Below are positions 15,289 through 52,041 of a stretch of DNA of 64,000 bases, piece by piece. Each line of letters opens with the position of its first letter. The first letter of the stretch is position 1. The DNA is taken from contig OZ024745.1 in NCBI GenBank assembly GCA_964016885.1, forward strand, positions 45,260,001-45,324,000. The letters are read 5' to 3'. The DNA comes from Eledone cirrhosa. Taxonomy: Eukaryota. The notes below the pieces were generated by a model that did no database searches, had not been told where the DNA came from, and saw only the letters and a program-made list of their open reading frames with translations. Both the position numbers and the translations under genes were made by a program.

Positions 15289-15481
15289 ATAGGAACAAGT
15301 AAGACCCCGACGGCTGAGCTCAAGCCGTTTCGACGGCTAATTCTGGACCAGAATTAGCCGTCGAAACGGCTTGAGCTCAGCCGTCGGGGTCTTACTTGTT
15401 CCTATTACCCACTCTACTACCCTAAGTATTGAGTACTTTGGTGCGTTATGGTCCACCTGGTTCCTTACCACATTTCCTTCG
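15289..15481 (+). mobile_element. ~190-bp hairpin element, family C, copy 1
   Basis: Perfect 58-bp inverted arms (15289-15346/15348-15405), 1-nt spacer, 75-nt tail, within (TA)n; contains GAAA-CGGC-TTGAGCTCA-GCCG-TC (HHR 3' half). Confidence 0.9.
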
Positions 15482-15534
15482 ATATATATAAAATATATAT
15501 ATATATATATATATATATACATACTAGTCGCACC

Positions 15535-15730
15535 TGGCAGTATCGGTGAGTGCCGGATAGCTTGGCAGCATAGTTACAGTCCTTTACAGTCTGAGTTCAA
15601 ATACCGACGAGGTTAGCTTTATCTTTCATCCTTATCCTTACGGGGTCGATAAAATATACCATCAGTAATGCACTGGGGTCGATTTAATCGATTTTCATCT
15701 CCCCCAAATTGTTGGCCTTGTGCCTAAATC
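15535..15730 (+). mobile_element. tRNA-derived SINE (dominant family)
   Basis: tggcagtatcgg...GAGTTCAAATACC...ggggtcgataaaat...ggccttgtgcc. Confidence 0.75.
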
Positions 15731-16798
15731 ATAAACCATGACTATTTTTCCTATATATATAATGTATATATATATTGTATATATATATATATGTATATGT
15801 ATATATGCATCTGTTTGTATGTCTGTTTGTACTCACGTATATAAATAGCTGTATATCCATCCATTCATTCATATATCTACATATTTTGTCTGCAGACATA
15901 TTATTTCGCCTTGCTATATGAAACATCAGCTTTCGATGGTAATTGTTCATATCTCTAGACCGATTACTTATGTTTGTTTGTGCTGTGAACCGTGTCTCGA
16001 AAATGTTATATATGTTATACATATGCACATATAAACACATATATATACATTCATGAATTTGTTTGATTCGACATCTACACAATAAATTTAGCGTACATAG
16101 TAAATCATCGCTGTCAGCAACAGACTGGATATTTTGCCGACTGATTGGTCAACTGGTTCACTGGAGGCCTTATGAAACTTTTTATGTCTCTAATCGAAGC
16201 ATTCAAAAGAGAATGCCGATCACTTTGGTTCCCGTTTGTAACAACCTTTCATGATTTCCTGCAGTGGTTTATGTATGCTGGGTAATGCAATCTTTACAGT
16301 CTCACTTGCTCTGTTATTTATTGCTCTTACATATAATTCGGAATGCAAAATACCTCCGTCGGTTCCGACGATGAGTGTTCCACTTGGTGTACATGGCTGA
16401 CCATTCCATAGACATTTGTATTCTTAATGTATTTCTGAGAGATATTTTGCGTGATACTCTATGATAAAACTGGTCCTTTCAACGACAGGCGTCTAGTTTC
16501 CGAACAATTTCTAAACAGTTTTCAGTGTTCGACGTTTTCTAAATAGATAATATATCGACCCCTTCCGAGGTCGATAAAATAAAGCACCAGTAAGTACTGG
16601 GGTCGATTTAATTGACTTTCCCCTCCCCTTCAAATTACTGGCCTTGTGCCTAAAGCAGAAACAATTTTATATATATATATATATATACAATATATTAATA
16701 AATGGAAACTATATATTTAAAACCATATTTATTTTATTATATATATTTCAAGGGCAACGAAGGCAAATTATGGCGCGCTTCCATATATATATATATAT

Positions 16799-17952
16799 CT
16801 AGGGCGGGTAAAATTCCCGAGATCCATGGACGAGTTCTCTCCAGCGGTCTCTGTCCCTCATTATCGCTGCCATGTCCTGCGTCTCCAACAGACCAGTGTC
16901 TGTCCTTAGGGCATCAACATACGTTAACATTGGTCTTCCTCTTCCAGTGTGTCCATGTAGGGGCTCCCACAGGAGCACTGAGTGCAATGTCAACTCTGGA
17001 TGTCGGTGAGCATGTCCAGCTAACCTCAGTCTCCTCTGTGTCACTTTTGAGCTGACTTTTGGGATGCTCCCATGCAGCTCTGAGTTTTTCATCCTCAGTG
17101 TATACTGATTAATGTTCAGAGCCATCCTCAGCATTCTCGTTTAGGATCCATCCACCATCTGAGTGAGTTTCTTTGTCCGTGTCCGAGTCTCAGATCGGTA
17201 GAGTAGCACAGACTCCACTACAGCAATGAAGAGGCGGATTTTCAGGTCTTTACGAAGGTCCAACTTACACACCGATCTCAAGCTGTGGCACGCCGCCCAG
17301 GCTTTGCTCTTCCTCTCAACCACACCATCTTCCGTATTCCCAATCTTTGCTCCCAAATACAGGAAGTCCTCAACCGATTCTAGCGGCTTCCCGCCTACAT
17401 TAGTGATCCCCTCTGGCTTCTCAACATTCTCTATCAGTCACATCCTGATGCTGAGGAAGATATTAGAGGGAGCTAGAGCAAAGTGCCTTCCTGCGGTCAT
17501 GGTTTTCATTGACTTTAGGAAGGCCTTTGATTCTGTGGACCGTCACTGACTGATGAAGATCTTACAGGCTTATGGAATTCGAAAGAAGATAGTGGACCTG
17601 ATATCACTGCTCTACACCAACACCAAAGTCCAAGTCATTACACCTGATGGGATGACAGAGTTCTTTGAGATACTGGCATACTGGCTGGAGTGCTCCAGGG
17701 AGATACATTGGCTCCCTATCCTTTTATCATCGTAGTGGACTATTGTATGCGCCTTGCACTGGAGAAACACCAGGACTCTGGCTTTACTGTAGCACCGGAT
17801 CAGAGCAGGAGAATTAAGGCGAAAAAGGTATCGGATGCTGAATTTGCCGACGACATAGTTTTGGTGACAAATACAGTGAAGGAGGCAGAGGATTTGATGC
17901 AGGAGGTTGAGACTGTGTCGATGAGTGTAGGGCTGAGAATGAATGAGACTAA
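16799..17952 (-). mobile_element. RTE-clade LINE, 5'-truncated with 5' inversion
   Basis: Minus 17435-16799: DFLYLG...ESVLLY.SET...RRLRLAGH...GRGRP...RDRDRWR. Plus 17430-17952: FIDFRKAFDSV, GVLQGDTLAP, FADDIVL, GLRMNETK. The two pieces are consecutive in an RTE ORF but lie in opposite orientations. Confidence 0.9.
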
Positions 17953-19884
17953 AAAAAAAAAAAAAAGATATATATATATATATATATTTTTTACTGTCCA
18001 CAAAGCCCCAGCATCAGTCGGCACTATCTTTACCTTATAATTATAATAATTATAATAACAATGGTTACTAATTTAAGTACAAGATCGACATCTTAAGGTG
18101 AGAGTTAAAGTCTATTAATTTAACTACAGTAACTAAGTCTGCTTGATCTTATATTTATTTACACGTAACGTTGCAGATTCTTCTGTTACTTCTCCCCATC
18201 CTCATCATTCTTGTTAAGAAACTCTACAACAACGACAACACCAACTCCTGTTGCTGTTGCTGCTACCGTTGCTGCTGTTGTTGCTACTATTGCTCCTGCT
18301 GCTGCCACCACCGCCTCCGTTCCTGTTGCAGCTATTAATATTAAATTAGAAATTAAGTGAAACCCACACATGTGCATGTTTGATTATTAACGAAAATAAT
18401 CTAAACATATCATTATATGATGAATTGAAATAACTGTATTTTTTTTTTTTTTACCAATTTGATAGGAAATGTTGTTATTTTTGTTTTTGTCAACACAAAC
18501 ATCGCATTGGTCGGGACAGATATGTAAAGTTGAGGTTATTGATCTAAACATAATTTAGTTAATCAATGGTTTATTGAGTTCAAAAATGCAGGCGTGTGAA
18601 AAGATCTGAAATAATTTAGTGCAAGTCTTGAAGACATATGTGCATAGAAGTTGGATAAATTGGCAATATTTTTATGTTGCTGAGTTGCAGTTTGAATTCT
18701 CACCTTTTCTGACTCATTATAAATATTCAATGTTAAAAAAACAAAACAAACAAAAACATAACCATATGGTTCAATAATATATTTTAGGATTTTCATCTTT
18801 GGTAGAAAAATAACAGCAACTATGTTTATCACTATATCTAATTGTATGATTGTACAGGAATATGAAAAGGAATCATTATCTGACACACGCACAAAAGTGC
18901 TATAAGTGAACTGCAAACTTTGGCAGTGCATGTTATAATTCACAAGGTTAATGCACTTTATATTCGTAACTTTGAGATCAAAACAGAAGAGTAGGACAGG
19001 TGAGGTCTGTGTGAATACAGATTTAAAGGACATTTATGAAATATGGGAAATAGTTACAATAGGAAACAGAAATAAATCTAATGCTCAGCCACTTACACGC
19101 TAATTCCATGAGCAGGTTGTTCCTTTGATCGAACAAATAGAACGCTCATCTTTGAAACCGACGGAACACTATTTTATTTCATTTTATTTCAAGCGTATAA
19201 TACATTATACACGAAGGTTACAGCTCCATTCTTGTCGAGGTTTATTGTTTTGTTTGACATTCTGATATATTTCCAGATAATCTATCTTTGTCAAGATTCA
19301 CATCAATGGTTACTCCCAGAACAACTGTTTTCTTTACGAATAAGTTATTCCCTTTAAATAAAGCCATACCTAATTTCAACTGACAGCCAAGTAATTTACA
19401 CTTGTTATTTTCCCACCAACTATATCAGTGGTAGAATAATATGATCTTTGGACTTTATGATTTTTAAAAAAGTGAATGTATGACATTTCTTTCCTCTATT
19501 AGTATTGTTTATTATCATGAACCGCTATCGGAATCGGCATATAACCATTCTAATCACATTTCCACGGCGTACAGTATTTATTTGCTTCATTAAAATAAAA
19601 GTTATGTTATCTAAAAGGATGTTTATTACTTTAGCATATCAGATTTTATGCAGGGGATTCATGTAAAATCTTCGTTAACAATTATTTAATTTTGTCATCT
19701 TGGCAATTAACATCAATGAACGACTGGCTGCGGTAGAATTTTAAATGTTACTGATAATTTGATAGCTTCCTGGTGTAATTCATACCCCATATGGCGAAAT
19801 ATAACGATTTCCAGCGTTATGTTGATTATCTATGAAATATTCAGACCCACTTACATGTAAAAACAACTTCCCAAAGAAATAGAT

Positions 19885-20230
19885 AATCGTTAGAGCATCG
19901 GATGAAATCGATTGCAGTATTTCGCTATGTCCTGCTACATCCTGGTTTTAAATCCCGCCGAGGTTAGATTTACCTTCCTTCCTTACGGGGTCGATAAATA
20001 AAGCACCAGTAATAGACTAGGGTCGATTTAATCAATTTTCCCTTCCCCCTAAATTCCTGACCTTGCTTTGAAGCCATGCTTTGAAGCATAGAGTTACTTC
20101 CCTTTATGATCTGAGTTCAAATCCCGCCGAGGTTAACTTTGCCTTTCATCCTTACAGGGTCGATAAAATAAAGTACCAGTAATACACTGGGATAATTGCT
20201 GGCATTGTGCCAAAAGTAGAAACAATTATT
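19885..20230 (+). mobile_element. Two adjacent SINE copies followed by (ATT)n
   Basis: aaatcccgccgaggtta...ccttac.gggtcgataaa occurs twice (~19950, ~20120). Confidence 0.75.
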
Positions 20231-51280: not shown

Positions 51281-51317
51281 TATATATATATATATATATA
51301 TATATATATATATATAT

Positions 51318-51510
51318 ATAGGAACCAGTAAGACCCCGACAGCTGAGCTCAAGCCGTTTCGACGGCTAATTCTGGACTAGAATTAGCCGTCGAAACGGCT
51401 TGAGCTCAGCTGTCGGGGTCTTACTGGTTCCTATTACCCACTCTACTACCTTAAGTATTGAGTACTTTGGTGCGTTATGGTCCACCTGGTTCCTTACCAC
51501 ATTTCCTTCG
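51318..51510 (+). mobile_element. Family C hairpin element, copy 4
   Basis: Private substitutions (aacCag, gacAgct) appear in both arms. Confidence 0.9.
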
Positions 51511-51559
51511 TTATATATATATATATATATATATATATATATATATATATATATATATA

Positions 51560-51690
51560 GGTAAGTTATTCCGGGTTGAATCGGAGGTAACCACAGTAAG
51601 GTGCTCAATACATAGCAGAGTATAAAAGTTTTAATATAGATGAGATTCTACAGGACTAGAACTGTTTCATTCTTTAGAAATGATCAGGAT
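51560..51690 (-). mobile_element. Short TA-flanked PLE-like 3' end with degenerate HHR-like motif
   Basis: Minus strand CTGATCA-TTTC-TAAA-GAAT-GAAA-CAGTTCTA, with tail ...ACTC...GAGCAC. Confidence 0.4.
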
Positions 51691-51881
51691 ATATATATAT
51701 ATATATATATATATATATATATATATATATATATATATATATATATATATATATATATTACGGAATAGGAATGAAGTGTCAAAATATCATTATGTATAAC
51801 AGAAGACTTATTTCGATATATACCAGGAGTTGTAGAGGGAAATCACGAAATATATATATATATATATATATATATATATAT

Positions 51882-52041
51882 GAAAATGTTTAACCCGGAC
51901 GGCAGAGCTCAAGCCGTTTCGACGGCTATTTCTGGAGTCCAGAAATAGCCGTCGAAACGGCCTGAGCTCTACCGTCGAGGTTAAACATTTTCCTATTACC
52001 CTAAGTATTGAGTACTCTGGTGCGTTATGGTCCATCCTTCG
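51882..52041 (+). mobile_element. Family C hairpin element, copy 5 (diverged subfamily)
   Basis: aaaatgtttaacc...ggttaaacatttt variant in both arms; shortened tail. Confidence 0.85.

What the first reader, a model, noticed from the sequence alone, without database searches (positions are those of the whole stretch)
15289..52041. Family C hairpins: private mutations mirrored in both arms and a different fold-back centre in every copy
Seen: copy 4 has aacCag/cTGgtt and gacAgct/agcTgtc in both arms; copy 2 has TAT/ATA and gcAgag/ctcTgc in both arms; copy 5 has tgtttaacc/ggttaaaca in both. Centres differ: TGG-A-CCA, TGGAC-TCG-GTCCA, GTACT-AATG-AGTAC, TTCT-GGACT-AGAA, CTGGA-G-TCCAG. A simply transposed MITE would accumulate arm-independent mutations and keep one centre. 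Inference: one arm is synthesised from the other at or near each insertion (cDNA snap-back or template switch), or the arms are homogenised by intra-hairpin conversion.
Basis: partly seen in the sequence, partly recalled or inferred. Interest (0 to 1): 0.8.

Follow-up and report, generated by a model that had tools for sequence, protein, structure and literature searches.

The report
Penelope retroelement mini-hairpins from double priming
These hairpins are tiny two-armed insertions of the end of a Penelope-like jumping gene that still has intact copies in this genome, and they likely form when both cut ends of a TA repeat each copy the start of the element's RNA and are then joined, which would explain a long-unexplained structure of this class of elements.

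Summary
The five hairpins are real, but they are not MITEs. Each is (TA)n + hairpin + ~76-bp tail + (TA)n and matches the end of a 3,531-bp Penelope-like retroelement (Hydra clade) with intact RT/GIY-YIG copies elsewhere in this genome. Centres are made anew at insertion: 59 distinct in 69 hairpins. The mirrored mutations are not private: they are subfamily alleles (copy 4 carries those of the intact element), and truly rare changes are one-armed (27 of 28), so ongoing arm conversion is unlikely. One arm ends at unit position 3455, the other at 3531 (39 of 41 minis, 15 of 15 long insertions). In 8 of the 15 the tail-less arm is the longer, so neither arm can be a copy of the other. Centres pile up at two predicted RNA 5' ends: an initiator-like site, and exactly the predicted cut of a variant hammerhead ribozyme. 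Likely mechanism: both target ends prime reverse transcription at two internal sites, run off the RNA's 5' end and are end-joined. Inverted pLTRs, tails and two start sites are known; the run-off minis and this test were not found in print.

The parts
15289..15405 (+). Copy 1 hairpin: inverted short arm (unit ~3396-3455) + sense arm
15406..15481 (+). Copy 1 tail (unit 3456-3531), between the two inferred RT start sites; followed by (TA)n
15355..15390 (+). 3' half of predicted hammerhead (stem II 3' strand, GAAA, stem III); predicted cut between 15385 and 15386 (unit 3435/3436). The 5' half is absent from the minis
   Evidence: inferred
39044..39232 (-). Copy 2: hairpin 39118-39232 + tail 39044-39117, older subfamily, deletion in the short arm
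45622..45824 (+). Copy 3: hairpin 45622-45749 + tail
51318..51510 (+). Copy 4: hairpin 51318-51434 + tail; 99% identical to the end of the intact element
51882..52041 (+). Copy 5: older hairpin 51882-51992 + partly deleted tail
51072..51280 (.). Perfect 76-bp inverted duplication (51072-51147 / 51205-51280) of flank found only here in the genome, across (TA)n, abutting the TA tract of copy 4
45358..45586 (-). Family B: same hairpin+tail anatomy from a second Hydra-like element; solo arms at 37390-37536 (-) and 21157-21303 (+)
51559..51690 (-). Family E: solo leader/pLTR piece of a third Penelope-like family; other copies show a canonical-looking hammerhead core

Best explanation
The hairpins are the shortest insertions of a Hydra-clade Penelope-like retroelement that has intact copies in this genome, and each likely forms when both ends of a cut (TA)n repeat prime reverse transcription on the element's RNA, one at unit position 3455 and one at 3531, and the two cDNAs are joined head to head. 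Shown: identity to the end of the 3,531-bp RT+GIY-YIG unit; one end of each kind per insertion; either arm can be the longer; centres concentrate at 3391-3401, with a second class exactly at 3435/3436. Inferred: both start sites lie only 60-137 nt from the RNA's 5' end, so most cDNAs run off the template at once (a strong-stop-like product). The main 5' end is likely the transcription start at an initiator-like TTAGT, the minor one the cut of a hammerhead with a U3-A8 core. Joining is likely by microhomology or templated-insert end joining, which makes each centre different. Both arms share alleles because both are copied from the same source RNA or source locus.
For: Arm+tail = unit 3395-3531, with tandem and intact copies; 14 of 150 listed matches lie in a 784-aa open frame. 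Hydra motifs are met, and the best fold matches are telomerase RTs. Ends: 39 of 41 hairpins not brought in by a search have one long and one short end, as do 15 of 15 scorable long insertions; the tail-less arm is longer in 8, the tail arm in 7. L138's arms share 22 variants found in none of the other 10 insertions compared, against 5 discordant sites in 2,018 bp. 142 of 226 arms start at 3391-3401, and solo copies start at 3391-3395 directly after (TA)n. Hairpins centred at the predicted ribozyme cut: 221 candidates, 40 scored, 30 of 30 fetched loci differ in flank. Core letters are conserved in 23-26 of 26 copies while N7 takes all four bases. Junctions show short overlaps and duplicated neighbouring sequence. 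In vitro, another PLE cleaves and extends both strands, starts at two internal sites that bound the tail, and is predicted to be a dimer (PMC11167929). Families B and E show the same anatomy.
Against: No RNA-level evidence for the start site or for cleavage was obtained. The hammerhead stems pair in 86% of cells but show no compensatory change and do not beat shuffles; 3 of 26 copies have a C3-A8 mismatch. The extra G expected from a cap is only suggestive: G 19, T 13, C 11, A 2 of 45 non-extending arms, and some G come from the other arm. In 4 of 15 long insertions the two 5' ends lie within 100 nt, which snap-back would also give. Flank snap-back at (TA)n exists (window 51072-51280; L141). 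Two short-short hairpins and a few long-long ones (L201, L266) depart from the rule. The long set was hand-picked for inverted pairs and intact frames. The cut-site class was found with a query holding that centre; unselected support is 6 arms at 3435-3436 against 1 each at six other positions in 3418-3448, and 3 of the 6 lie in loci from that search.
Confidence: 0.7

Rival explanations
1. Same element, but one cDNA starts at 3531, its 3' end folds back and copies itself until it anneals to the (TA)n target at 3455 (the first reader's snap-back; related to the self-priming proposed for PLE palindromes).
For: Gives one long and one short end and shared alleles. Near-symmetric centres in minis and in 4 of 15 long insertions. 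Flank snap-back is seen twice beside element ends. PMC3846280 proposes self-priming for head-to-head PLE palindromes.
Against: Cannot make the 8 of 15 long insertions whose tail-less arm is longer, up to ~12 kb against 280 bp. Many minis, copy 4 among them, have more 5' sequence in the tail-less arm. Solo tail-less arms exist (13), and 3455 matches a fixed end rather than any TA-like site.
Confidence: 0.15
2. Hairpins arise from longer palindromic insertions by later centre deletion, with arms kept alike by intra-hairpin conversion.
For: Long perfect palindromes are known to be unstable at their centre (recalled, not from a call). Centres are heterogeneous.
Against: Rare alleles are mirrored in 1 of 28 cases. 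Centres cluster at two fixed sequence positions, and solo copies with no palindrome start at the same place. Multi-kb palindromes persist intact.
Confidence: 0.07
3. Ordinary MITE or other DNA-transposon amplification from a few master hairpins.
For: Copy 1's centre is shared by 14 other loci, and the cut-site class has one centre in at least 24 identical insertions.
Against: One-sided tail, so no terminal inverted repeats. The sequence is the end of an RT-encoding unit. 59 centres in 69. The shared centre occurs with different subfamily alleles.
Confidence: 0.03
4. Long-read fold-back or assembly artefact.
For: TA-rich, palindrome-rich assembly.
Against: Base-exact ends at 3455/3531, arm-arm differences in older copies (204 of 4,597 columns; only 23 of 98 perfect), and subfamily structure.
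Confidence: 0.02

Closest known systems
Hydra-clade Penelope-like elements (Craig et al. 2021, PMC8557442; read: passages, sections 11 and 20, supplement parts 1-2 and search passages)
   Same: C-terminal GIY-YIG after RT; RW(K/R), DKT, CxCx5C linker, CxxC and CxH, no CCHH; (TA)n targets; tandem and inverted 5'-truncated copies with a tail at one end. Hydra-1_Obim is visibly homologous by eye.
   Different: Unit 3.5 kb (theirs generally under 3 kb). Hammerhead is not canonical: U3-A8 core and ~35-nt loop II. Tail 76 nt rather than 30-40. The paper passages read describe no mass of miniature hairpins and no mechanism.
PAc Poseidon element of Anolis (Frangieh et al. 2024, PMC11167929; read: parts 1-2 of 4, the main text)
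   Same: Both strands cut and extended, AT-rich target, two internal RT start sites that bound the tail, hammerhead in the pLTR, predicted dimer.
   Different: Other clade. They do not link the two sites to the two ends of one insertion, and they found no RNA reads ending at the ribozyme site; here genomic insertions start exactly at the predicted cut.
Adineta vaga Penelope inverted pLTRs (Arkhipova et al. 2013, PMC3846280; read: passages)
   Same: Head-to-head inverted junctions with palindromes, tail on one pLTR, Inr-like motif in the pLTR, microhomology at 5' junctions.
   Different: Explained there by self-priming on an antisense template; arm lengths here argue for two separately primed cDNAs.
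LINE-1 twin priming (recalled; seen only in search listing)
   Same: Both target ends prime cDNA, and the two products are joined by microhomology.
   Different: L1's second primer anneals at variable internal sites and gives an inversion without duplication; here both starts are fixed and adjacent, so the result is an inverted duplication.
MITEs
   Same: Short, palindromic, high copy number, in TA.
   Different: No terminal inverted repeats (one-sided tail), variable centre, derived from an RT element.

Membership tests
Penelope-like element (EN+) | Single ORF with telomerase-like RT | tested here: met
   784-aa open frame with YRDD; model pLDDT 84, top Foldseek hits TERT, E~1e-8, TM ~0.3. 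Pfam and PDB sequence searches gave no hit for this ORF.
Penelope-like element (EN+) | C-terminal GIY-YIG endonuclease | tested here: met
   VIY...YIG motif at aa 658-675, conserved in relatives; by motif only, no profile hit.
Penelope-like element (EN+) | Tandem/partial-tandem pLTRs, inverted 5'-truncated copy, tail at one end | tested here: met
Hydra clade | RWK and DKT motifs | tested here: met
   RWR at 104, DKT at 184 (definition)
Hydra clade | CxCx5C linker; CxxC and CxH around conserved E and N; no CCHH | tested here: met
   639, 737 and 765; no further Cys motif inside the GIY-YIG core
Hydra clade | Insertion into (TA)n | tested here: met
Hydra clade | Canonical hammerhead in the pLTR | tested here: not met
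   No CTGANGA in the unit, no Rfam hit in the window. A U3-A8 variant core is present instead; this pair is reported as natural and active in vitro (PMC3088659, passages). The clade is defined by protein features, and the supplement lists members without a full HHR.
Hydra clade | Placement in an RT phylogeny with named Hydra families | not tested
   Reference proteins were seen only in the supplement text.
Type I hammerhead ribozyme | Three stems around the core, A15-U16 pair, H17 | tested here: inconclusive
   86% of cells paired against 28-57% when slid, but no compensatory change; core conserved, N7 free.
Type I hammerhead ribozyme | Self-cleavage | not testable with these tools
   Indirect only: insertions centred at the predicted cut.
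MITE | Terminal inverted repeats at both element ends and a fixed interior | tested here: not met
   One-sided tail; 59 centres in 69.

The most novel reading that the evidence does not exclude
Penelope-like elements integrate by double-ended priming: a dimer uses each end of the cut target on its own fixed start site of one RNA, so every insertion is two cDNAs joined head to head. Because the start sites sit just behind the promoter, most events are tens of thousands of strong-stop mini-palindromes that record the RNA's 5' ends, including in-vivo cleavage by a U3-A8 hammerhead. At least three families in this genome do the same.
Probability: 0.55. Interest if true: 0.75.

Novelty: new variant of a known kind. 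Interest (0 to 1): 0.58.

Why it matters
How Penelope-like elements make their inverted pLTRs and one-sided tail is stated as open in PMC8557442. This family has intact, near-identical copies and about 46,000 end-copies (9 in 580 kb of random stretches; rough 95% range 21,000-88,000, related subfamilies included). They give a genomic read-out that separates double priming from self-priming, and they point to an RNA start site and a ribozyme cut that can be assayed directly. In practice these hairpins look like MITEs and could be misfiled as DNA transposons.

Tried and rejected
Rfam on the window: no match. Tail-only genome search: 0 candidates because common words are skipped, uninformative. 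My first guess that a canonical hammerhead core lies just 5' of the arm: only 5 hits, all chance junctions in minis; the intact unit has no such core. Pfam and PDB sequence searches on the ORF: nothing. The first structure string for the hammerhead was out of register and was redone. The first scan for flank duplications missed its positive control and was redone. A genome-wide count of centre types was not obtained, so centre statistics rest on samples. Earlier findings of the scan: none. Literature: 8 searches ran; none listed a paper on run-off mini-hairpins or double-ended priming in PLEs. Subscription papers, Repbase/Dfam entries and bioRxiv supplements were not seen and may hold this family. 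The host was not determined; octopus was a recalled guess used as a search word (PMC13282606, passages: Penelope-like counts only). Also seen: bioRxiv 10.64898/2026.07.22.740005 (part 1 and passages) and PMC7151607 (passages); neither treats these hairpins.
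Full report
Observation. A fold-back scan finds four of the five hairpins with 55-62-bp arms; blastn adds the fifth at 39118-39232 on the minus strand. Each copy also has a one-sided tail of about 76 bp and lies in (TA)n, so the element is asymmetric. The window is G000:C5:45260001-45324000 of a 3.0-Gb genome.

What it is. Longer copies extend 5' through a UTR into an RT + GIY-YIG frame. A protein search lists 150 places, 14 of them in a 784-aa open frame, including a tandem array with a 3,531-bp period. 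In that natural unit (L137:1424-4954) the arm is 3395-3455 and the tail 3456-3531, and the tail runs on into the start of the frame. The protein has RWR, DKT, YRDD, CxCx5C, VIY..YIG, CxxC and CxH and lacks CCHH, which matches the Hydra clade as defined in PMC8557442. It has 645 relatives at E<=1e-30, the best 120 at 37-54% identity and mostly unnamed. Its model matches telomerase RTs best. Pfam gave no hit for it. Density is 9 tail-bearing copies in 580 kb of random stretches.

Among 136 tail-bearing arms not selected on their centre, 69 were scored as hairpins; they show 59 distinct centres, ten seen twice and none three times (many were brought in by arm-based searches). Copy 1's centre recurs in 14 other loci of 30 from a query containing it, on two subfamily backgrounds, which fits repeated formation better than one master. 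MITE amplification is rejected.

In 98 hairpins, alleles seen more than three times were mirrored 140 times and one-armed 106 times; alleles seen two or three times, 8 against 75; alleles seen once, 1 against 27. In the 27 hairpins not brought in by a search, rare alleles were mirrored once and one-armed 27 times. Copy 4's alleles are those of the intact unit. So mirroring reflects the source, and later mutation is arm-independent: no sign of conversion. Both arms do share a source: in L138, 22 variants are common to both arms and absent from the other 10 insertions compared, with 5 discordant sites in 2,018 bp; the other ten are too young to tell.

Ends and arm lengths. 39 of 41 hairpins not brought in by a search have one arm ending at ~3455 and one at ~3531; two are short-short; long-long cases occur among selected loci (L201, L266). 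I fetched 20 stretches (18 loci), chosen for inverted pairs or intact frames; 15 had both outer ends in view, and all have one end of each kind. The tail-less arm is the longer in 8 (L136/137, L138, L143/144, L146, L147, L151, L153, L155) and the tail arm in 7. A snap-back copy of the tail-ended cDNA cannot be longer than it, and a copy of the tail-less cDNA cannot hold the tail, so in those 8 each arm needed its own priming. In vitro, another PLE cuts and extends both strands and starts at two internal sites that bound the tail (PMC11167929). Junctions show overlaps of a few bases or short duplications of neighbouring sequence, as expected of microhomology-mediated end joining (established knowledge, not tested here).

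Why the centre sits where it does. 142 of 226 arms start at 3391-3401, and solo copies start at 3391-3395 right after (TA)n. That site reads TTAGT, an initiator-like motif (recalled), which is also present at the centre hot spot of family B. A cap-derived extra G is only suggested (19 of 45). Upstream, at 3347-3370, lies the other half of a type I hammerhead with a U3-A8 core: in 26 copies chosen for diversity the core letters hold in 23-26, N7 takes all four bases, and the stems pair in 86% of cells without covariation. U3-A8 is a reported natural, active variant (PMC3088659). The predicted cut is after C3435. One hairpin in L154 is centred exactly there; a search with it gave 221 candidates, 40 scored, and all 30 fetched loci differ in flank, one pair being two arms of one insertion and one being L154 itself. 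Unselected support is thinner: 6 arms at 3435-3436 against 1 each at six nearby positions. I infer that the centre marks the RNA's 5' end. RNA begun inside loop II lacks the core, so it would keep both start sites near its 5' end and yield minis; tandem-length arms would need read-through or circular RNA (inference).

Against. There is no RNA evidence. Four long insertions have near-equal 5' ends, and DNA snap-back does occur at (TA)n: a 76-bp inverted duplication of flank found nowhere else abuts copy 4, and L141 has the same anatomy. Some minis may therefore be snap-backs.

Comparison and verdict. Inverted 5'-truncated copies, a one-sided tail and (TA)n targeting are published for PLEs, so the element is a member of a known clade. 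The run-off minis, the one-end-each rule, the arm-length test against self-priming and the insertions at the ribozyme cut were not found in 8 literature searches. Family assignment about 0.95; double priming with run-off about 0.7; interest 0.58.

Noticed in passing
window 45358-45586 (-), 37390-37536 (-), 21157-21303 (+): Family B: arm + tail in (TA)n from a second Hydra-like element; a 49%-identical frame lies upstream of it in L229 and L038. Its hammerhead core looks degenerate.
   Followed up: partly
window 51559-51690 (-): Family E: piece of a third Penelope-like family; other copies form hairpins and show a canonical-looking hammerhead; it precedes a related frame in L135.
   Followed up: partly
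window 11932-13540 (-): 5'-truncated, frameshifted remnant of another Hydra-like ORF, 39% identical to the L137 frame.
   Followed up: no
window 51072-51280; L141:8643-8894; also L084:162-425, L068:2554-2737, L029:430-623: Inverted duplications of unique or low-copy flank across (TA)n, two of them within 70 bp of a family C end: likely snap-back of a (TA)n break end.
   Followed up: partly
G000:C1:437.197-437.214 Mb (L136, L137): About 3.5 near-identical tandem units with intact frames plus a 280-bp inverted arm; would fit a circular or read-through RNA template.
   Followed up: partly
L132, L134, L135, L181: A subfamily with C3-A8 in the hammerhead core, predicted inactive, that still spread.
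   Followed up: no
L137:1317-1518: The frame is open for 67 codons before its first ATG, through the tail; the model has low confidence there.
   Followed up: no
window 45358-45824 and 51072-52041: Several Penelope-like families are stacked in the same TA tracts, each insertion offering new targets.
   Followed up: no
window 61175-64000 and 43660-44009: A 24-bp satellite (117 copies, 92% matches) and a 43-bp minisatellite (8 copies, 99%).
   Followed up: no
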